Of a DNA stretch of 58,720 nt, positions 9,739 to 58,720 are shown one piece after another. The first letter of the stretch is position 1, and the number at the start of each line of letters is the position of its first letter. The stretch is from the NCBI GenBank assembly GCA_964611515.1, contig CAZTAH010000001.1:1-58720 (forward strand), given 5' to 3'. Under the pieces are notes generated by a model. It searched no databases. It saw nothing but the letters and a program-made list of their open reading frames with translations, and was not told the origin of the DNA. Both the position numbers and the translations under genes were made by a program. The DNA is from an uncultured Candidatus Saccharibacteria bacterium. Lineage in GTDB: Bacteria > Patescibacteriota > Minisyncoccia > Phycocordibacterales > UBA9973.

Positions 9739-10437
9739 TTAAGGTTCTACAATGACAACAAATTCTCCCTTTAAGCTGTCGTTATTTTCTTCTAAATATT
9801 TAATTAGATCTTTAGCTTGCCCCTCCAAGAATTCCTCAAATTTTTTTGTCATTTCCCTAGCTATAATTATTCTCCGTTTTGGCATATATTCACTTAAAGA
9901 AATCAGGGTCTTTAGAATACGGTGAGTAGATTCATAAAAAACTATAACTTTTTTGCTTTCGGCTATCTCTTTAAAAATTTTTTCTCTTCCTTTTTTATGA
10001 GGAATAAAACCCAGAAAAATAAACTTAGCTGAAGGCACACCACTAGCAGAAAGAGCAGAAACTAAAGCACTAGGACCAGGAATAGGAGAAACTCTCACGG
10101 TGTCCTTTAATTCTTTTTTAATCCTAGAAACAAGCAAAAGACCGGGATCAGAAATACAAGGAGTTCCTGCTTCTGAAACCATGGCTAGATTTTTTCCTGC
10201 TTTTAATAAATTAATGATTTCGTCTTCTTTGTTTGAGGTGGAGTGAGAATGATAGCTAATAGTTTTAGTGTTGATGTTATATTTATTTAATAAAATCTGA
10301 GTAGTTCTTGTATCCTCACAAAGAATATAATCTACTTCTTTTAATATCTTTACAGCACGATAAGTAATATCCTCCAAGTTCCCTATTGGAGTTCCAACTA
10401 TGTATAAAGTAGAGATGATTTTATCATCGTTTTCCAT
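9739..10437 (-). CDS. rsmI: 16S rRNA (cytidine1402-2'-O)-methyltransferase
   Basis: LYIVGTPIGNLEDIT.RA...L, CEDTR.T..LL and SEAGTP.ISDPG motifs. Confidence 0.9.
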   Translation of the reverse strand: MENDDKIISTLYIVGTPIGNLEDITYRAVKILKEVDYILCEDTRTTQILLNKYNINTKTISYHSHSTSNKEDEIINLLKAGKNLAMVSEAGTPCISDPGLLLVSRIKKELKDTVRVSPIPGPSALVSALSASGVPSAKFIFLGFIPHKKGREKIFKEIAESKKVIVFYESTHRILKTLISLSEYMPKRRIIIAREMTKKFEEFLEGQAKDLIKYLEENNDSLKGEFVVIVEP

Positions 10438-10890: not shown

Positions 10891-10962
10891 GGCCCCATCG
10901 TCTAGTGGTTAGGACATATCCTTCTCAAGGATAAAACCAGAGTTCGATTCTCTGTGGGGTCA
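10891..10962 (+). tRNA. tRNA-Glu(CTC)
   Basis: Acceptor GGCCCCA/TGGGGTC. Anticodon arm TATCC-TTCTCAA-GGATA. T-loop GTTCGATTC. Discriminator A; no CCA. Confidence 0.9.
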
Positions 10963-11152
10963 CAAAAGCGCGAATTCAAAAAGACTGGACTGCTCCAGTC
11001 TTTTTCGCTTTTGTGAAGACGGAAGCATGTTTTTCTAGCAAGAAAAACAGCTGAGTCCGGGGCTGGAAAATTTGCGAGCCCACCACTACCCACTTCTAAA
11101 AATAAAGAGAAGTGGGTGTGCGGACAGGCGACGGCGAGCAAATTATTGTGGC
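10963..11152 (+). repeat. tRNA-trailer structured element, Glu-linked member
   Basis: Starts AAAGCG directly after tRNA...ACA. Shares CGCTTTTGTGA(A/G)G, GTTTTNNT-AGCA-ANNAAAAC, a CCGGGG-loop hairpin and AAATT..AATTATTGTGGCC with the Arg and Leu arrays. Confidence 0.75.
10978..11005 (+). terminator. hairpin/terminator in tRNA-Glu trailer
   Basis: AAAAAGACTGGA ctgc TCCAGTCTTTTT (12-bp stem plus T run). Confidence 0.7.
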
Positions 11153-11205
11153 CCACACCACTCCTGCATGCGAAGCATTCCTTTTTAATAATCGTAAAAT
11201 AAAAA
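11153..11205 (+). repeat. direct repeat copy A (orphan tRNA-3'-like CCACACCACTCCTGCA + TGCGAAGCATTCC..)
   Basis: Near-identical to 11625-11676, 472 bp away. Confidence 0.85.
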
Positions 11206-11274
11206 ACACCGATTAGGTGTTTTTTATTTTAAAAAGCAAACTGCTTTGCTTTTGTGCGATTTGTGAGGGCGGAT

Positions 11275-11410
11275 CCCCACAAACCCATATTTCCATTGCT
11301 TTTTGTGGTTAGATTAAGTTTCTTCAGAATAAAACTGAGGAATTGTCTTTTAGTTAAATAAATATTTACTAATAATAAAAAAGCTAAAGGATGGAAATAT
11401 AGGTGTGGGG
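11275..11410 (+). repeat. MITE-like ~135-bp element, copy 1
   Basis: Termini CCCCACAAACCCATATTTCCAT.. and ..ATGGAAATATAGGTGTGGGG are imperfect inverted repeats. Homologous to 29719, 42804, 57891 and 58253. Confidence 0.8.
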
Positions 11411-11624
11411 ATTTAGCATAATTTCGCCAGCCCGCCTGCTAATGCTTAGCATTTCGGGCAGGCAGGCGAAATAGCCGAGCCGGGTGAGAAAGCGAACACT
11501 TGGAGCTTTTGCAAGACCTTGAGCGTTTTGTAATCAAAATGCGAAAGGTGTACAGATCCTGAAAGGATCGCGAGTACTTACATATTTTGCGAATACTTGG
11601 AGCAAAATATTTAGTAACTTGTGA

Positions 11625-11676
11625 CCACACCACTCCTGCATGCGAAGCATTCCTCTTAACTAATCGTAAAATAAAA
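11625..11676 (+). repeat. direct repeat copy B
   Basis: GTGACC|ACACCACTCCTGCA|TGCGAAGCATTCC.., matching 11153-11205. Confidence 0.85.
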
Positions 11677-28034: not shown

Positions 28035-28069
28035 ATAACCAAGTGTCCGGCCGGACCTCTTGTTACACC
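28033..28069. repeat. REP-like palindrome, degenerate copy a
   Basis: GGATAACCAAGTGTCCGGCCGGACCTCTTGTTACACC. Confidence 0.6.
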
Positions 28070-28093
28070 AAGAGACTTTCTGTTATTATTTCA

Positions 28094-28424
28094 TAAGGGT
28101 TATTTTTGATTTTTAGACTTAAGGTCTCCCGAGTCTTTTTTCCATTTTTACCCTTATATAGTAATGCTTATTCTATACTCAGCTTACACGATCGTACGTT
28201 TTGAGTATAAATAGGCCTTTATAAAATAAGGGTTATTTTTGATTTTTAGACTTAAAGTCTCCCGAGTCTTTTTTCCATTTTTACCCTTATATAGTAATGC
28301 TTATTCTATACTCAGCTTACACGATCGTACGTTTTGAGTATAAATAGGCCTTTATAAAATAAGGGTTATTTTTGATTTTTAGACTTAAAGTCTCCCGAGT
28401 CTTTTTTCCATTTTTACCCTTATA
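28094..28424. repeat. 132/133-bp tandem repeat, ~2.5 copies
   Basis: Unit starts at 28094, 28226 and 28359. One poly-T indel and one A/G difference. Two hairpins per unit. Confidence 0.9.
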
Positions 28425-28445: not shown

Positions 28446-28483
28446 GGTGTAACAAGACGGACGGCCGTCCGTCTTGTTACACC
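28446..28483. repeat. REP-like palindrome, perfect 38-bp copy b
   Basis: GGTGTAACAAGACGGACGGCCGTCCGTCTTGTTACACC. Confidence 0.9.
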
Positions 28484-28485
28484 TA

Positions 28486-28946: not shown

Positions 28947-28965
28947 TGTGCCCTCGGCAGGAATC
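28947..28965 (-). repeat. displaced exact copy of tRNA-Arg 3' end (19 nt)
   Basis: Minus sense GATTCCTGCCGAGGGCACA equals the end of the gene at 29167-29185. Flanked by GTGACC and AAAGCG. Confidence 0.9.
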
Positions 28966-29096
28966 GGTCACTCTCGTGGATATTTTGTTTCTGGTTCGAC
29001 AAGCTCACCATCACAAAATATCTCACTCCATCGGCCCCCACTCGGTCGTTTCCTTTTTCCTAATCTTAATTAGGAAAAAGGGCTTTGCGCGACCTC

Positions 29097-29119
29097 GGTT
29101 CGATTCCCGCGAATTGCAC
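29097..29119 (+). other. orphan tRNA T-loop/3'-end-like fragment
   Basis: GGTTCGATTCCCGCGAATTGCAC. No matching 5' half. Confidence 0.4.
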
Positions 29120-29168
29120 TAAAATTCTAAATCCCAAGAACTCCGTTCTTGGTCTTAAGTATTTTATG

Positions 29169-29607: not shown

Positions 29608-29646
29608 GGGGGTAACAAGGTGGACGGCCGTCCGTCTTGTTACACC
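29608..29646. repeat. REP-like palindrome copy c
   Basis: GGGGGTAACAAGGTGGACGGCCGTCCGTCTTGTTACACC. Confidence 0.85.
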
Positions 29647-29673
29647 AATGAAGCATTACTAGTTAGTAATTTG

Positions 29674-29711
29674 GATTCTCGCACGCAAGCAAAAGATTGC
29701 TTGCTTACCTG
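29674..29711 (+). repeat. second copy of split tRNA-Gly-3'-like module
   Basis: GATTCTCGC-ACGCAAGCAAAAGATTGCTTGCT-TACCTG resembles 29958-30000. Confidence 0.7.
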
Positions 29712-29718
29712 AAATAAT

Positions 29719-29853
29719 CCCCACACCTATATTTCCATCCTTTAGCTTTTTTGTTATTAGTAAATATTTATTTAATTAAAAAAAACCTCTCAGTTTTGCT
29801 CTGAAGATTTTTCAACTAACCACAAAAAGCAATGGAAATATTGGTTTGTGGGG
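29719..29853 (-). repeat. MITE-like element, copy 2 (inverted)
   Basis: Runs from CCCCACACCTATATTTCCAT.. to ..ATGGAAATATTGGTTTGTGGGG. Confidence 0.8.
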
Positions 29854-30032
29854 GTGCGGGTAGCGAGACCGCGAGTACGCTTATCGATCCTTACAGGATC
29901 TGTACACTCTTCGTATTATTTGGAATTAAAAATTCCAAATAATATACTCAGAGTCTTCGATTCTCGCACGCAAGCAAAACTATTTGCTTGCTTACCCGCA
30001 TTAAAAAGCTCCACTGGAGATTTTTAATTTAG
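29854..30032 (-). repeat. Gly-linked trailer unit bounded by tRNA-Gly 3'-end copy
   Basis: Minus sense holds a weak hairpin, then TGCGGGTA-[hairpin]-GCGAGAATCG (antisense to the tRNA 3' end). After more hairpins it ends TCTCGCTACCCGCAC (29854-29868), a 15-nt direct copy of the tRNA end. Confidence 0.75.
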
Positions 30033-42745: not shown

Positions 42746-42777
42746 ACCCAGTGTGGAGCACTGGGTGATTATATTTT
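42746..42777 (+). terminator. terminator after tRNA-Trp
   Basis: ACCCAGTG tggag CACTGGGT followed by a T-rich tail. Confidence 0.7.
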
Positions 42778-42798
42778 GTGGGAGATGGAAGACTCGAA
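42777..42798 (-). repeat. inverted Trp-like tRNA 3'-end copy
   Basis: Minus sense TTCGAGTCTTCCATCTCCCACA matches the tRNA-Trp end TTCGATTCTTCCATCGCCCGCA at 19 of 22 positions. Confidence 0.7.
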
Positions 42799-42803
42799 CC
42801 GAT

Positions 42804-42938
42804 CCCCACAAACCCATATTTCCATTGCTTTTTGTGGCTAGCTAAAATCTCTTCAGAACAAGAGCTGAAGATCTTTTTTTAATTAAACAAAACTTTCTAA
42901 TAATAAAAAAGCTAGGGGATAGAAATATAGGTGTGGGG
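42804..42938 (+). repeat. MITE-like element, copy 3
   Basis: Runs from CCCCACAAACCCATATTTCCAT.. to ..ATAGAAATATAGGTGTGGGG. Confidence 0.8.
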
Positions 42939-43040: not shown

Positions 43041-43078
43041 GGTGTAACAAGACTGACGGCCGTCAACTTCGTTACCCC
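43041..43078. repeat. REP-like palindrome copy d
   Basis: GGTGTAACAAGACTGACGGCCGTCAACTTCGTTACCCC. Confidence 0.8.
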
Positions 43079-43400: not shown

Positions 43401-43482
43401 GCCGGAGTGGCGGAATTGGTATACGCGCGCGACTCAAAATCGCGTCTCGCAAGAGTTGTGGGTTCAAGTCCCACCTCCGGCA
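43401..43482 (+). tRNA. tRNA-Leu(CAA)
   Basis: Acceptor GCCGGAG/CTCCGGC. Anticodon arm CGCGA-CTCAAAA-TCGCG. Long variable arm. T arm GTGGG-TTCAAGT-CCCAC. Confidence 0.9.
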
Positions 43483-44250
43483 CAAAGCGAAGCTTTGGGC
43501 AAAAACTAAGTGATGGGGTTATCACTTGGTTTTTAGGTGGTGGGACTTGAAAGCCGGAGCGCGACGGCGCGAGGCGGGGTCGCGGAAATTTTTAGTAAAA
43601 AATTATCTGTGACCAAGTCCCACCTCCGGCACAAAGCGAAGCTTTGGGCAAAAACTAAGTGATGGGGTTATCACTTGGTTTTTAGGTGGTGGGACTTGAA
43701 AGCCGGAGCGCGACGGCGCGAGGCGGGGTCGCGGAAATTTTTAGTAAAAAATTATCTGTGACCAAGTCCCACCTCCGGCACAAAGCGAAGCTTTGGGCAA
43801 AAACTAAGTGATGGGGTTATCACTTGGTTTTTAGGTGGTGGGACTTGAAAGCCGGAGCGCGACGGCGCGAGGCGGGGTCGCGGACTTTTTCAGCAGAAAA
43901 AGATCTGTGACCAAGTCCCACCTCCGGCACAAAATGAAGTTTTGGGTAAAAACTAAGTGATGGGGTTATCACTTGGTTTTTAGGTGGTGGGACTTGAAAG
44001 CCGGAGCGCGACGGCGCGAGGCGGGGTCGCGGAAATTTTTAGTAAAAAATTATCTGTGACCAAGTCCCACCTCCGGCACAAAATGAAGTTTTGGGTAAAA
44101 ACTAAGTGATGGGGTTATCACTTGGTTTTTAGGTGGTGGGACTTGAAAGCCGGAGCGCGACGGCGCGAGGCGGGGTCGCGGAAATTTTTAGTAAAAAATT
44201 ATCTGTGACCAAGTCCCACCTCCGGCACAAAATGAAGTTTTGGGTAAAAA
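43465..44250 (+). repeat. 149-bp tandem array (5.3 copies), Leu-linked tRNA-trailer family
   Basis: Unit starts at 43465, 43614, 43763, 43912, 44061 and 44210. Each carries CAAGTCCCACCTCCGGCACA, the last 20 nt of the tRNA-Leu gene region. Confidence 0.95.
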
Positions 44251-48715: not shown

Positions 48716-48779
48716 TAAAGAGAGTCAGGAGAAAACCGAAAATCCTAAAAAGAGTAGGTGCTATTTAAAAAAACAAGAG

Positions 48780-49013: not shown

Positions 49014-49070
49014 CATTAGGAGAAAGCCGAAAATCCTTAAAAGAGTAGGCAAAATTAAAAATTTAAAAAA

Positions 49071-57890: not shown

Positions 57891-58024
57891 CCCTAACACC
57901 AATGTTTTCATTCTAATGCTTTTTTGTTATTAGAAAGTTTAATTTAATTAAAAGACAATCTCTCACTCTTGTTCTGAAGAGATTTTAGTTGAATACAAAA
58001 AGCAATGGAAATATTGGTGTGGGG
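57891..58024 (-). repeat. MITE-like element, copy 4 (inverted, left terminus degenerate)
   Basis: Preceded by a GC palindrome at 57864-57890. The 57864-58024 block is repeated at 58226-58385. Confidence 0.75.
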
Positions 58025-58059
58025 GTAACCAAGTGGACGGCCGTCCGTTTGGTTACCCC
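58021..58059. repeat. REP-like palindrome copy e
   Basis: GGGGGTAACCAAGTGGACGGCCGTCCGTTTGGTTACCCC. Confidence 0.85.
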
Positions 58060-58100
58060 TTAGAACTTTTTTTGATTTTTATAGTTTTAGGTATTTGTTT

Positions 58101-58130
58101 GAGCCGCTTCCCAGACTTGAACTGGGGACC
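58101..58130 (-). pseudogene. tRNA-like 3' half (intact T arm + acceptor 3' strand) of a tRNA not present in the window
   Basis: Minus sense GGTC-CCCAG-TTCAAGT-CTGGG-AAGCGGC-TCA. No matching 5' acceptor strand nearby. Confidence 0.5.
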
Positions 58131-58252
58131 TTCGCTTTAGTTATGCGCCTGTTCCCACTTCGCCAAGGCTACGCGGGACAAGCTCGCACACCCACTTTTC
58201 TCAATTCTTAGAGGTGGGTTTCGTGGGGGCCTGCCTGCGCAGGCGGGCCTGT

Positions 58253-58385
58253 CCCCACACCAATGTTTTCATTCTTTTGCTTTTTTGTTATTAGAAAGTT
58301 TAATTTAATTAAAAAATAATCTCTCACTCTTGCTCTGAAGAGATTTTAGTTGAATACAAAAAGCTATGGAAATATTGGTGTGGGG
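58253..58385 (-). repeat. MITE-like element, copy 5 (inverted)
   Basis: Runs from CCCCACACCAATGTTTTCAT.. to ..ATGGAAATATTGGTGTGGGG. Confidence 0.8.
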
Positions 58386-58720
58386 ATTGACATAGCCTAG
58401 ATTGATTACTTTTCGTGAGCCGCTTCCCAGACTTAAGCTAGGATTCTTTGCTTTAGTTATGCGCCTGTCCGCACACCTACTTTTCTTGATTCTTAAAAGT
58501 GGGTGTGGGGATTGACATAACCTAGATAAGTTACAATACTTGAGCCGCTTCCCAGACTTAAGCTAGGATTCTTTGCTTTAGTTATGCGCCTGTCCGCACA
58601 CCTACTTTTCTTGATTCTTAAAAGTGGGTGTGGGGATTGACATAGCCTAGATTGATTACTTTTCGTGAGCCGCTTCCCAGACTTAAGCTAGGATTCTTTG
58701 CTTTAGTTATGCTTTGACAT
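58382..58720 (-). repeat. 125-bp tandem array (at least 2.7 copies) running into the contig end
   Basis: Unit starts at 58382, 58507 and 58632. Each unit carries CTTAAGTCTGGGAAGCGGCTCA (minus sense) and the hairpin CACACCCACTTTT..AAAAGTAGGTGTG. Confidence 0.9.

What the first reader, a model, noticed from the sequence alone, without database searches (positions are those of the whole stretch)
10963..11676. tRNA-Glu trailer is a third family member with covarying hairpins; 52-bp direct repeats carrying an orphan tRNA-3'-like piece bracket a MITE
Seen: AAAGCG follows tRNA-Glu ...GGGGTCACA directly, the same ACA|AAAGCG junction as at Arg and Leu. The trailer aligns with the Arg unit. In one hairpin GTTTTTCT-AGCA-AGAAAAAC corresponds to GTTTTGTT-AGCA-AACAAAAC, with two compensatory pair changes and an identical loop. 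In another, CAGC-..CCGGGG-GCTG corresponds to CGCGA-GCCGGGG-TCGCG, a different stem with a similar G-rich loop. The last helix AATTTGC..GCAAATT carries an inserted CCCACTTCT..AGAAGTGGGTGTGCGGACAGGCG module, and that module recurs in the 125-bp array at 58.4-58.7 kb. The unit ends ATTGTGGCC|CACACCACTCCTGCA|TGCGAAGC. The 15-nt piece is not the tRNA-Glu end but looks like the 3' end of another tRNA. The same piece and its flank recur 472 bp downstream (11625-11676). The interval holds a MITE-like copy and a ~50-nt extended hairpin at 11421-11471. Inference: the locus is a mosaic built by repeated insertion or recombination of the same module set.
Basis: partly seen in the sequence, partly recalled or inferred. 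Interest (0 to 1): 0.7.

Follow-up and report, generated by a model that had tools for sequence, protein, structure and literature searches.

The report
Decayed tRNA-trailer repeat array, new family
The DNA after this tRNA-Glu gene is a worn-down tandem array of small, hairpin-rich, non-coding repeat elements from a widespread and apparently undescribed family that sits at the 3' ends of tRNA and tmRNA genes in Patescibacteria; the supposed fragment of another tRNA is just part of the repeat.

Summary
These are the ACA|AAAGCG junction, homology to the Arg unit, covarying hairpins, a 50-nt nested insert that recurs at 58.4 kb, 52-nt direct repeats, a MITE and a long hairpin. Syntenic relatives (L201, L010) change the reading. 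The locus is a degenerate array: unit A, unit B and a truncated third start. The 52-nt repeats are the inter-unit junction. The "orphan tRNA 3' piece" aligns to ACATAGATTTTGCA... in relatives, so it is not a tRNA end.

In relatives each unit ends with an invariant 19-mer, TCGATAAGCGTACTCGCGG, followed by a copy of the host tRNA's 3' end from T60. That 19-mer occurs in at least 120 metagenome contigs. It lies about 140 nt downstream of tRNA-Glu, Arg, Gln, Gly, Lys, Met, His, Leu, Pro and tmRNA genes. The surrounding element also carries the exact reverse complement of the tRNA's positions 54-76.

Covariation is strong and favours the tRNA-sense strand. Unit A is 98.6% identical between genomes whose flanking genes are about 70% identical, which argues for mobility. 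No linked protein, Rfam family, phage, plasmid or paper matches.

Best reading: a new family of non-autonomous, strand-specifically structured elements that target tRNA ends. The mechanism is inferred, not shown.

The parts
10891..10963 (+). tRNA-Glu(CTC) gene. No CCA is encoded; discriminator A10962 is followed by CA. This is the host gene of the array.
   Evidence: ARAGORN; Rfam tRNA, 63.3 bits.
10964..11153 (+). Unit A (A-type module). It is a deletion derivative of the canonical element in which the anti-tRNA arms are lost (GTGA|AGAC joint). It ends in GTGGCC.
   Evidence: 98.6% identical (137/139, insert removed) to the unit after tRNA-Glu in L201, and 86% to L010 unit 2. Profile E 1e-36. 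Fold z-score -5.6.
10964..11012 (+). Outer stem AAAAGCG/CGCTTTT enclosing a terminator-like hairpin (10978-11005) followed by a T-run.
   Evidence: Terminator scan hit. Fold -20.5 kcal/mol, z -4.6. Helices 1-2 carry 8 pairs changed on both sides.
11029..11048 (+). Hairpin GTTTTTCT-AGCA-AGAAAAAC.
   Evidence: 8 bp, 100% paired in 10 sequences, 3 pairs with compensatory changes (helix 3). The same hairpin recurs in canonical-type elements L124 and L207.
11048..11065 (+). CAGC-TGAGTCCGGG-GCTG hairpin with a G-rich loop. The CCGGGG is probably a relic of the anti-T-stem segment of a tRNA-Glu-type canonical element.
   Evidence: Alignments A1 and A2. Comparison with canonical ...GCGTCCGGGAATCGAA. 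The relic reading is an inference.
11069..11144 (+). Helix AATTTGC/GCAAATT, with a tip that carries the nested insert.
   Evidence: 6 bp, 100% paired, 3 pairs with compensatory changes (helix 4).
11080..11129 (+). 50-nt nested insertion: hairpin CCCACTTCT..AGAAGTGGG plus TGTGCGGACAGGC.
   Evidence: Absent from all related units. 88% match to the minus strand of the 58.4-kb array. Fold z -4.2.
11153..11204 (+). Direct repeat copy 1, the inter-unit junction. It holds ACA, the variable 7-mer CCACTCC, a GAA mini-hairpin (11168-11178), a decayed remnant of hpB/19-mer, and the start of a B-type unit (AATCGTAAAATAAAA).
   Evidence: the repeat finder D1. Alignment to the L010, L201 and L123 junctions. 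No stable fold of its own.
11190..11624 (+). Unit B (B-type module). It begins like the sequence that directly follows tRNA-Glu in L010 and ends in CTTGTGACC. It is interrupted three times (see the next four parts).
   Evidence: Alignment of its ends with the B units of L201 and L010.
11195..11231 (+). Perfect 16-bp palindrome, the terminator-like hairpin that opens unit B.
   Evidence: the repeat finder I3, 100% complementary.
11275..11412 (.). MITE-like element with terminal inverted repeat CCCCACAAACCCATATTTCCAT. It is a secondary insertion into unit B.
   Evidence: Inverted repeat I1. Five copies in the window at 77-89% identity; none in any other locus held and none in the B units of relatives.
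11421..11471 (+). Extended hairpin replacing the short ATAATTTTTTAGTAAAAAAAT hairpin of related B units.
   Evidence: Fold -30.3 kcal/mol, z -5.5. Comparison with L010 and L201.
11490..11570 (+). Nested fragment of the canonical element core (..AAGACCTTGAG-hairpin-AAAGGTGTACAGA-TCCTGAAAGGA-TCG), lacking the 19-mer.
   Evidence: nhmmer with a profile of 45 canonical elements from other contigs: E 2.3e-7, profile positions 38-114.
11625..11676 (+). Direct repeat copy 2: the same junction, followed by only 15 nt of a third (B-type) unit start before unrelated flank.
   Evidence: the repeat finder D1, 94%.

Best explanation
The interval 10964-11676 is a decayed tandem array. Its order is unit A, junction, unit B, junction, and a truncated third start. 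The units belong to a family of small (about 140-240 bp), non-coding, hairpin-rich repeat elements that live immediately downstream of tRNA and tmRNA genes in Patescibacteria (Paceibacteria-type genomes).

The intact ("canonical") form of the family reads as follows:
- the tRNA, ending in A73-CA;
- a palindromic, terminator-like hairpin;
- the exact reverse complement of the tRNA's acceptor 3' strand;
- an optional hairpin (hp3);
- the reverse complement of T-stem 3' strand plus T-loop (..AATCGAA);
- a variable hairpin (hpA);
- an invariant ~40-nt core: GGTGTAC-TGA-hpB-TCGATAAG-hpC-GG;
- a direct copy of the tRNA 3' end from T60, typically 15-19 nt.

The window's Glu units are derivatives.
- Unit A has lost the anti-tRNA arms and gained a 50-nt hairpin module.
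- Unit B has gained a MITE, an expanded hairpin and a piece of canonical core.
- Both junctions have lost the 19-mer and the tRNA copy.

How it works, with steps marked as shown or inferred:
- Shown: the hairpins are kept by compensatory change.
- Shown: the fold is asymmetric in favour of the tRNA-sense strand.
- Shown: the arms always match the adjacent tRNA.
- Shown: unit similarity is incongruent with flanking-gene similarity.
- Shown: no protein gene travels with the elements.
- Inferred: these are non-autonomous mobile elements that home to tRNA/tmRNA 3' ends.
- Inferred: insertion duplicates the T60-C74 segment, so the tRNA stays intact.
- Inferred: an enzyme encoded elsewhere recognises them in single-stranded form. 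That form could be a folded sense-strand DNA that rebuilds a duplex mimic of the target, or a read-through transcript.
- Inferred: arrays grow and shrink by unequal recombination between the repeated tRNA-end copies or junctions, and then decay by deletion and nested insertion.
For: Array identity:
- L201 and L010 keep the RsmI/tRNA-Glu(CTC) synteny.
- They carry arrays A-B and B-A-B with intact junctions of the form ...GTG(A/G)C(C/T)C-ACAnnnnnnnTGCATGCGAAGCAT...hpB-TCGATAAGCGTACTCGCGG-TCTCTGTAGGGTCACA.

Family size and architecture:
- 60 distinct tRNA-adjacent copies were recovered, next to 9 tRNA types and tmRNA. The 19-mer usually lies 130-150 nt after the gene.
- The anti-acceptor segment is exact in most copies and follows the 3' strand even where the tRNA has a G-U pair.
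- The anti-T-loop covaries with two deviant T-loops, in L129 and L093.

Structure:
- Canonical alignment: 25 of 33 pairs compensatory, 89.8% of cells paired against 69.8% in shuffles, 0 of 500 shuffles reach it.
- A/Arg-type alignment: 16 of 37 pairs compensatory, 98.3% paired.
- Hairpin hpB shows 26 distinct stem/loop variants.

Strand asymmetry:
- Summed minimum free energy -3132 against -2917 kcal/mol and 177 against 115 G-U pairs (canonical).
- -581 against -503 kcal/mol and 47 against 8 G-U pairs (A-type).

Mobility:
- Unit A is 98.6% identical between the window and L201, although tRNA-Glu is 84% and the flanking genes 67-71% identical.
- L201 and L010 flanks are closer to each other (78%), yet their A units are only about 84-86% identical.
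- The same core and hpA variants occur with different tRNAs.
- L199 holds a tandem duplicate that includes the same leader hairpin.
- The downstream tRNA copy is full length in 24 of 60 copies and truncated in the rest.

Non-autonomy: the largest protein cluster near the motif occurs in 7 of about 120 loci and the clusters are housekeeping genes.

Link to the window: a canonical copy lies after tRNA-Gly (E 2e-31) and a core fragment lies inside unit B (E 2.3e-7).
Against: - No recombinase, transposase or reverse transcriptase was found to act on the elements, and no excised circle or empty-site/filled-site pair was observed.
- How three tRNA-matching segments are acquired at each new tRNA is unexplained. 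Frequent retargeting by a classical integrase would create chimeric tRNAs.
- G-U asymmetry, compensatory changes in several hairpins and an invariant single-stranded core are also the classic signature of a functional RNA. Constant orientation behind strong tRNA promoters fits co-transcription.
- The 98.6% identity could in principle reflect transfer of a functional RNA gene rather than selfish mobility.
- The window's own Glu units lack the tRNA copies and the 19-mer, so their membership rests on homology to arrays in relatives.
- Sampling of canonical copies was conditioned on an exact 19-mer, which inflates the apparent invariance of that stretch.
Confidence: 0.55

Rival explanations
1. The elements are functional non-coding RNA genes made as tRNA trailers. 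They are read through from the tRNA promoter. The anti-arm and the distal tRNA-end copy close each unit into a tRNA-like acceptor/T minihelix, so that RNase P, RNase Z and perhaps the CCA-adding enzyme cut it out. The invariant core does the work, by binding a conserved partner or by catalysis. The Glu units would be diverged or decaying paralogues.
For: - Sense-strand G-U asymmetry.
- Strong covariation in 5-6 helices, with conserved loops and linkers.
- Always co-oriented with, and directly behind, a tRNA or tmRNA gene.
- The T-like stem is 96% paired and the acceptor-like stem is 7 bp with exactly 0-1 nt linkers.
- The core is invariant across contigs of very different base composition.
- Known precedents, from my own knowledge: MALAT1-mascRNA and plant tRNA-snoRNA dicistrons processed by RNase P/Z.
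Against: - A consensus intrinsic terminator (GC hairpin plus T-run) sits between every tRNA and its element, and no promoter is evident.
- The acceptor part of the distal copy is lost in more than half of the copies while the anti-acceptor stays exact.
- A generic minihelix would not need to copy the neighbouring tRNA, its T-loop and its trailer base for base.
- Unit similarity is incongruent with the flanking genes.
- No Rfam family matches.
Confidence: 0.3
2. The 15-nt CACACCACTCCTGCA is the displaced 3' end of another tRNA, brought in by recombination, and the 52-bp repeats are the duplicated insertion or attachment site of the MITE-containing insert.
For: - In this window, real displaced tRNA 3' ends do follow GTGACC at the Leu and Arg loci.
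- The piece ends in a plausible 7-nt acceptor strand plus A.
Against: - Homologous junctions in 8 related units read ACATAGAnnTnGCA and continue into the same covarying GAA mini-hairpin.
- The position that would be A58 is C in both copies.
- None of 178 tRNAs held has that end.
- The repeats flank a complete family unit whose ends align with the B units of L201 and L010, which lack the MITE.
- The MITE's own ends lie 70 and 212 nt inside the repeats.
Confidence: 0.04
3. The units are scars of ordinary integrase-mediated genomic islands or prophages at tRNA genes (att arms left after internal deletion, as in cis-mobilisable elements). They would have no structure-dependent function of their own.
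For: - Direct repeats of the tRNA 3' end that start in the T-loop and run to the end of the gene.
- tmRNA is also used as a site.
- 2-kb gene-bearing inserts lie between the tRNA and an element in L202 and L106.
- From my own knowledge: integrases prefer the T-loop and anticodon-loop sublocations of tRNA and tmRNA genes (Williams 2002).
Against: - Element size is constant at about 150-185 bp, and the core is invariant in at least 120 contigs.
- There are compensatory changes and strand asymmetry.
- No T-stem 5' strand/T-loop core site lies next to the distal copy. The junction is CGCGG|T60.
- No integrase is linked.
- There are no hits in IMG/VR, phage or plasmid collections.
Confidence: 0.07
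4. The element is the guide RNA of an RNA-guided system encoded elsewhere (TnpB/IscB-like, IS110 bridge-RNA-like, or CAST-like homing). It would be a conserved scaffold followed by a 15-16-nt 3' guide equal to the tRNA gene sequence that lies just 3' of a TTCGAT motif.
For: - Scaffold plus variable 15-19-nt 3' tail.
- The tail's target in the tRNA gene is always preceded by TTCGAT.
- From my own knowledge: TnpB guide RNAs carry about 16-nt 3' guides next to a TTGAT-type motif.
Against: - No TnpB, IscB or IS110 gene was seen near any copy.
- The anti-arm would sequester the guide.
- More than half of the tails are truncated.
- No match to Rfam guide-RNA families.
Confidence: 0.04

Closest known systems
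Integron cassettes (attC) and CTX-phi-type IMEX elements, which integrate as folded single-stranded DNA using a host or trans-acting tyrosine recombinase (my own knowledge)
   Same: - Non-autonomous units with no recombinase of their own.
- Tandem arrays at one chromosomal site.
- Function depends on an imperfect hairpin of one particular strand, with extrahelical bulges.
- In CTX-phi, two inverted target-like sequences fold into a duplex mimic of the target. Here the sense copy or core TTCGAT together with the anti-arm can rebuild duplex tRNA positions 54-76, with hpC and hp3 as bulges.
   Different: - The target is the T-loop/3' end of many different tRNA and tmRNA genes, not attI or dif.
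- No IntI or Xer involvement has been shown.
- The units carry no genes.
- The arms change with the host tRNA.
- The folding model is an inference only.
Genomic islands and cis-mobilisable elements integrated at tRNA/tmRNA 3' ends
   Same: - Direct repeat of the tRNA 3' end starting in the T-loop.
- The tRNA is kept intact.
- tmRNA is also a site.
- Accretion into arrays.
   Different: - Only about 150-240 bp long, with no integrase and no cargo.
- An internal inverted copy of the target.
- An invariant structured core with covariation.
REP/BIME and REPIN repeats, MITEs, and palindrome-associated elements of the IS200/IS605 family
   Same: - Short, non-coding, multi-copy and hairpin-forming.
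- Strand-asymmetric.
- Mobilised in trans.
- Nested and clustered.
   Different: - Strict association with tRNA/tmRNA 3' ends.
- Target-derived arms.
- Duplication of 15-19 nt of the target.
- No RAYT or TnpA gene was identified.
tRNA-like processing modules of non-coding RNAs (MALAT1-mascRNA, plant tRNA-snoRNA dicistrons, bacterial YrlA/Y RNA)
   Same: - A tRNA-linked structured RNA whose ends could be set by RNase P/Z acting on an acceptor/T-arm mimic.
   Different: - The mimic copies the neighbouring tRNA exactly.
- A terminator separates it from the tRNA.
- No Rfam match, including YrlA and mascRNA, above noise.

Membership tests
A/Arg-type tRNA-trailer repeat (as defined by the window's Arg array and by L201, L123, L196, L135 and L010 units) | Starts at ..ACA|AAAGCG, with an outer stem AAAGCG/CGCTTT enclosing a terminator-like hairpin. 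| tested here: met
   10964-11012.
A/Arg-type tRNA-trailer repeat | Conserved GTGA(A/G)G.CGGA linker, the ATG-GTTTTnnn-AGCA-nnnAAAAC hairpin, the CCGGGG-loop hairpin, the AAAATTnn helix, and the end ATT(A/T)TTGTG(A/G)CC. | tested here: met
   Alignment A2, profile E 1e-36. Unit A is 98.6% identical to L201.
A/Arg-type tRNA-trailer repeat | Helices are kept by compensatory changes when more members are added. | tested here: met
   16 of 37 pairs; 0 of 500 shuffles.
Canonical tRNA-mirror element (19-mer family) | Reverse complement of the host tRNA's acceptor 3' strand and of T-stem 3' strand plus T-loop (..AATCGAA). | tested here: not met
   Units A and B at the Glu locus lack it; only GTGA and CCGGGG relics remain. 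It is met at the window's tRNA-Gly trailer.
Canonical tRNA-mirror element (19-mer family) | Core GGTGTAC-TGA-hpB-TCGATAAGCGTACTCGCGG. | tested here: inconclusive
   The Glu locus has only a nested partial core at 11490-11570 (E 2.3e-7) and a decayed TAATC-GTAA-ATAA remnant in each repeat; there is no 19-mer. Syntenic arrays in L201 and L010 have it.
Canonical tRNA-mirror element (19-mer family) | Direct copy of the host tRNA 3' end from T60 immediately after the core. | tested here: not met
   No copy of TCTCTGTGGGGTCA lies downstream of tRNA-Glu in the window. It is present in L010 (twice) and in L201 and L123.
Orphan tRNA 3' fragment | Sequence equals the 3' end (T-loop to discriminator) of a real tRNA in the genome or in relatives. 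| tested here: not met
   0 of 178 tRNAs in 1.6 Mb. Homologous positions in relatives are not tRNA-like. The whole genome was not available.
MITE (the 11275-11412 insert) | Terminal inverted repeats, multiple dispersed copies, no coding capacity. | tested here: met
   20-nt terminal inverted repeats; 5 copies at 77-89% identity.
MITE (the 11275-11412 insert) | Target-site duplication flanking each copy. | tested here: inconclusive
   No consistent duplication could be read at the three copies inspected by eye.
tRNA-targeting integrative element (tyrosine integrase att sites) | An integrase gene inside or next to the element, or a matching attP on a phage or plasmid. | tested here: not met
   No recurrent recombinase near about 120 copies. 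No hits in IMG/VR, phages or plasmids.
Any Rfam 15 RNA family | A covariance-model hit at or near the gathering score. | tested here: not met
   Only tRNA and DUF805b reach threshold in the window. E-value scans of the Glu, Leu and Gly trailers give noise only.
Folded-ssDNA recombination site (attC / CTX attP type) | Recombination of one folded strand by a tyrosine recombinase. | not testable with these tools
   Only indirect evidence is available: strand-asymmetric pairing and a possible duplex mimic with bulged hairpins.

The most novel reading that the evidence does not exclude
The canonical elements are a protein-less, self-guiding homing system for tRNA genes.
- The anti-arm would be an internal guide that base-pairs with positions 54-76 of the target tRNA gene or transcript.
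- The invariant 40-nt core would be a ribozyme, or a landing pad for a universal host enzyme.
- The element would sit in the tRNA like a T-loop (59/60) intervening sequence that carries its own spare 3' exon plus a terminator.

The predicted lowest-energy fold of tRNA plus element is exactly such a strand-swapped, intron-like topology. The arms track each host tRNA, including deviant T-loops. If true, this would be a new class of RNA- or ssDNA-guided mobile element, or a new tRNA intron type in bacteria.
Probability: 0.15. Interest if true: 0.92.

Novelty: new variant of a known kind. Interest (0 to 1): 0.7.

Why it matters
- tRNA genes are the classic landing sites of mobile DNA. Here a very small element with no gene of its own appears to colonise many different tRNA and tmRNA genes in reduced Patescibacteria genomes without breaking them, and it carries both a direct and a mirror copy of its target.
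- If the mechanism is folded-strand or guide-based, it would be a compact and naturally reprogrammable way to insert at a specific site.
- If instead the elements are RNAs, they form a large unannotated RNA family linked to tRNA processing in a major uncultured bacterial lineage.
- In practice these arrays break short-read assemblies. They can also be mistaken for tRNA fragments, att sites or CRISPR-like arrays during annotation.

Tried and rejected
- **Known RNA families.** Rfam at gathering score on the whole window, and E-value scans of the Glu, Leu and Gly trailers, gave only tRNA, DUF805b and noise.
- **Phage or plasmid origin.** Five IMG/VR pattern scans and blastn against the phage and plasmid collections found nothing.
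- **A linked enzyme.**
  - Open reading frames within 4 kb of about 120 copies were clustered. There was no recurrent family, only housekeeping genes.
  - Two small HTH-LAGLIDADG clusters (7 loci) have no fixed position relative to the element.
  - The neighbours of the Glu, Arg, Gly and Leu loci in the window are housekeeping genes.
- **Orphan piece read on the minus strand** as the 5' end of a class II tRNA (GCAGGAGTGGTG, compare tRNA-Leu GCCGGAGTGGCG). I dropped this because the homologous junctions in relatives are not tRNA-like, and no tRNA held begins GCAGGAG.
- **GTGACC as the reverse complement of the tRNA-Glu end.** This is attractive, but in A-type units the motif aligns with the core linker GGTGTAC, so I left it open.
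- **Hammerhead, twister, pistol or hatchet cores by eye.** No match, and Rfam agrees.
- **A pseudoknot in the Leu unit** between GCCGGAG and the tRNA copy. The 4-nt linker cannot span the helix, so I rejected it.
- **Minus-strand transcription** (a tRNA-like RNA convergent with the tRNA). This is disfavoured by the strand test.
- **Islands in L202 and L106** between the tRNA and the element. They hold no recombinase and look like secondary insertions.
- **Literature.** Four usable full-text searches, including the core sequence itself, found no description. Two further searches failed on syntax.
- **Not possible.** A genome-wide search for a tRNA ending CACCACTCCTGCA could therefore not be run.
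Full report
**Setting**

The window is AT-rich (about 33% G+C) chromosomal DNA with housekeeping genes. These include an RsmI-like methylase at 9739-10437(-), a Mur ligase, MiaA, UDG and a class II aminoacyl-tRNA synthetase. It holds eight tRNA genes, none of which encodes CCA. The best relatives of the RsmI protein are Patescibacteria (Paceibacterota/Nomurabacteria-type MAGs, 71-79% identity). Short-read contigs of the very same strain exist in several public samples. They break at 11001-11006, inside the first hairpin of the finding. One contig, L005, reaches 11158 at 99.9% identity, so the sequence is not an assembly artefact.

**Checking the observation**

- tRNA-Glu(CTC) ends ...GGGGTCACA and AAAGCG follows.
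- The trailer is homologous to the 139-bp Arg repeat.
- The hairpin at 11029-11048 differs from its Arg counterpart by paired changes.
- The tip of the AATTTGC/GCAAATT helix carries a 50-nt insert (11080-11129). Its sequence recurs, on the other strand, in the 125-bp array at 58.4-58.7 kb.
- A 52-nt direct repeat lies at 11153-11204 and 11625-11676, 94% identical.
- Between the repeats lie a MITE-like copy (11275-11412) and a 50-nt hairpin (z -5.5).

One correction is needed. At Arg, the ACA|AAAGCG junction follows a 19-nt duplicate of the tRNA-Arg 3' end that comes after a separate 190-bp element. It does not follow the tRNA gene itself.

**What relatives show**

Two loci keep the RsmI/tRNA-Glu(CTC) synteny: L010 (a GTDB species representative) and L201 (a metagenome contig).

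- In L010 the trailer is three tandem composite units, of types B, A, B.
- In L201 the units are A then B, the same order as in the window.
- Each intact unit ends ...TTGTG(A/G)C(C/T)C | ACA + 7 variable nt + TGCATGCGAAGCAT.. + a small hairpin + TCGATAAGCGTACTCGCGG | TCTCTGTAGGGTCACA.
- The last 16 nt of that string are a copy of the tRNA-Glu 3' end from position T60.

Four conclusions follow.

- The window's ACACCACTCCTGCATGCGAAGCATTCC aligns base for base with ACATAGATTTTGCATGCGAAGCATACC and ACATAGAATTAGCACGCGAAGCGTTCG. The supposed orphan tRNA piece is therefore ACA, a variable 7-mer, and the 5' half of a GAA-loop mini-hairpin that covaries (ATGC/GCAT, ACGC/GCGT, ACAT/GTGT).
- The rest of each 52-nt repeat is a decayed remnant of the small hairpin and 19-mer, followed by the first 15 nt of a B-type unit. 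The repeats are therefore two copies of the inter-unit junction. The interval between them is a complete unit B, and a third unit is cut off after 15 nt.
- Compared with the B units of L201 and L010, the window's unit B has acquired three things: the MITE, an expanded hairpin (11421-11471), and a roughly 77-nt piece that a profile of canonical elements recognises (11490-11570, E 2.3e-7).
- None of 178 tRNAs in the 1.6 Mb held ends in CTCCTGCA.

**The family behind it**

In nearly every contig with enough upstream sequence, a tRNA or tmRNA gene lies about 130-150 nt upstream on the same strand. The bases after the 19-mer repeat that gene's 3' end from T60.

Sixty distinct copies next to tRNA-Glu, Arg, Gln, Gly, Lys, Met, His, Leu, Pro and tmRNA share one architecture:

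1. A palindromic A-tract/GC-hairpin/T-tract that scores as an intrinsic terminator.
2. GTG plus the exact reverse complement of the acceptor 3' strand.
3. An optional hairpin (hp3), absent in L152.
4. The reverse complement of the T-stem 3' strand and T-loop (..AATCGAA).
5. A variable hairpin (hpA).
6. The core GGTGTAC-TGA-hpB-TCGATAAG-hpC(GCG UACU CGC)-GG.
7. The direct tRNA-end copy.

Further details of the arms and the copy:

- The anti-arm follows the tRNA's 3' strand even where the tRNA has a G-U pair.
- The anti-arm tracks two deviant T-loops: TCCGATT with AATCGGA in L129, and TGCGATT with AATCGCA in L093.
- The direct copy is full length (mode 15 nt, T60-C74) in 24 of 60 copies and truncated or mutated in the rest. 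The T-stem part is almost always kept.

The window has one canonical copy, after tRNA-Gly (29855-30031 minus strand, E 2e-31), and partial ones after tRNA-Gly and tRNA-Trp. Unit A looks like a canonical tRNA-Glu element whose segment from the anti-acceptor to AATCGA was deleted (joint GTGA|AGAC) and whose hairpins were then elaborated. This is inferred.

**Structure and strand**

- On 30 canonical elements, 25 of 33 proposed pairs show changes on both sides. 89.8% of cells pair, against 69.8% in shuffles and at most 47% when partners are slid.
- On 10 A/Arg-type units the figures are 16 of 37 pairs and 98.3%.
- Folding favours the tRNA-sense strand: summed energies -3132 against -2917 and -581 against -503 kcal/mol, and G-U pairs 177 against 115 and 47 against 8.
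- Folding tRNA plus element together gives a strand-swapped structure. The native tRNA 3' half and trailer pair with the anti-arm, and the tRNA's 5' strands pair with the distal copy. This fold is 14-18 kcal/mol below the sum of separate folds in the full-copy cases. Its relevance is unknown.

**Mobile or resident?**

- Unit A is 98.6% identical (137/139) between the window and L201. Their tRNA-Glu genes are 84% identical and their flanking genes 67-71%.
- L201 and L010 are closer to each other in flanking genes (78%), yet their A units are only about 84-86% identical. This incongruence argues for recent transfer.
- Identical core and hpA variants occur with different tRNAs, for example tRNA-Glu in L195 and tmRNA in L191.
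- Array composition differs among contigs that share the same first element.
- L199 holds a clean tandem duplicate.
- No protein family recurs near the elements.
- The elements are absent from IMG/VR, phage and plasmid collections.
- No Rfam family matches, and four usable full-text searches, one of them for the core sequence itself, found no description.

**Interpretation**

My best-supported reading has two parts.

- Descriptive part (about 0.85). The finding is a decayed array of this family. It carries nested insertions and has lost the tRNA copies and the 19-mer.
- Mechanistic part (about 0.4-0.5). The family is non-autonomous mobile DNA that homes to tRNA/tmRNA 3' ends and duplicates T60-C74, so the tRNA survives. 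It is handled in a single-stranded, sense-strand form by an enzyme encoded elsewhere. Arrays arise by unequal recombination between the repeated ends.

The main rival (about 0.3) is a functional trailer RNA whose tRNA-like ends recruit RNase P/Z. The terminator in front of every element, the frequent loss of the acceptor part of the distal copy, and the base-for-base copying of the neighbouring tRNA weigh against it. The G-U asymmetry and the invariant core weigh for it. The two readings are not exclusive.

How the arms come to match each new tRNA remains unexplained. Possibilities are templated snap-back copying, a folded duplex mimic of the target as in CTX-phi, or a selected guide.

**Verdict**

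Family membership, covariation and the mosaic nature hold. The orphan-tRNA reading and the idea that the repeats bracket a MITE do not.
- The locus itself is a relic, but it led to a large and architecturally unusual element family that appears to be unannotated.

Noticed in passing
window 29855-30031 (-), with a partial second copy at 29671-29708 (-): An intact canonical tRNA-mirror element lies after tRNA-Gly: anti-acceptor GCGGGTA, hairpin, GCGAGAATCGAAG, core with the 19-mer, and a 15-nt tRNA-Gly 3' copy. A MITE and a partial second element follow.
   Followed up: yes
window 28947-29167 (-): A distinct 190-bp element ending GAGTGACC, plus a 19-nt duplicate of the tRNA-Arg 3' end (positions 57-73 plus CA), lies between tRNA-Arg and the 139-bp Arg array. 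The array units themselves have no tRNA copy between them.
   Followed up: partly
window 43465-44250 (+): A 149-bp array (5.3 copies) follows tRNA-Leu. Each unit ends CTGTGACC plus a 19-nt tRNA-Leu 3' copy and contains GGTGGGACTTGAA (the reverse complement of T-loop/T-stem 3') and GCCGGAG in permuted order. Units differ by paired hairpin changes.
   Followed up: partly
window 58100-58712: The 125-bp array (2.7 copies) carries, on the minus strand, a tRNA-3'-like piece TTAAGTCTGGGAAGCGGCTCA. This suggests another trailer array whose host tRNA lies beyond the window end. The array shares the module that is inserted in unit A.
   Followed up: partly
window 42777-42799 (+): The tRNA-Trp trailer holds TGTGGGAGATGGAAGACTCGAAC, which matches the reverse complement of the tRNA-Trp 3' end at 20 of 23 positions. 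It is cut off by a MITE copy at 42804-42938.
   Followed up: partly
window 11275-11412, 29717-29853, 42804-42938, 57896-58025, 58252-58385: Five copies of a ~137-bp MITE-like element (terminal inverted repeat CCCCACA.ACC.ATATTTCCAT), all inside tRNA trailers. None occurs in any other locus fetched, and no clear target-site duplication was seen.
   Followed up: partly
window ~28035-28070, 28446-28484, ~29610-29650, ~43045-43075, ~58030-58060: A recurrent long GC-rich hairpin of the type GGTGTAACAAGACGGACGGCCGTCCGTCTTGTTACACC closes several tRNA trailers or arrays.
   Followed up: no
window 28093-28424: A separate 133-bp tandem repeat (2.5 copies, 99% identical) lies between the Phe trailer and the end of the Arg array.
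   Followed up: no
window 48726-48760 and 49017-49051 (+): Two Rfam DUF805b RNA motif hits (44.7 and 52 bits) lie downstream of tRNA-Ala(TGC), each ahead of a small open reading frame.
   Followed up: no
L001-L006 (same strain), ends at window 11001-11006: Short-read assemblies of this strain from at least six samples all break inside the first hairpin of unit A, which is shared nearly identically by several genomes. The repeat family fragments assemblies.
   Followed up: partly
L202 3390-5500; L106 ~590-2680: Gene-bearing inserts of 2.0-2.3 kb (small membrane or unknown proteins; NTase-like, kinase-like and SDR genes) sit between a tRNA and its displaced mirror element. No recombinase gene is present.
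   Followed up: partly
L036 4440-4660 (-); L049 3369-3545 (+): Unrelated-looking ~160-200-nt inserts are flanked by 18-19-nt duplicates of the tRNA-Thr and tRNA-Met 3' ends in other Paceibacterota (Pacebacteria, Yanofskybacteria). Duplication of the tRNA end with small inserts therefore extends beyond the 19-mer family.
   Followed up: no
L105, L138, L156, L153 (downstream of the tRNA-end copy): Another recurrent palindromic module, ..GAGAGCTAGTTCGAGCTCTCGAGAA.., follows the distal tRNA copy in several metagenome loci.
   Followed up: no
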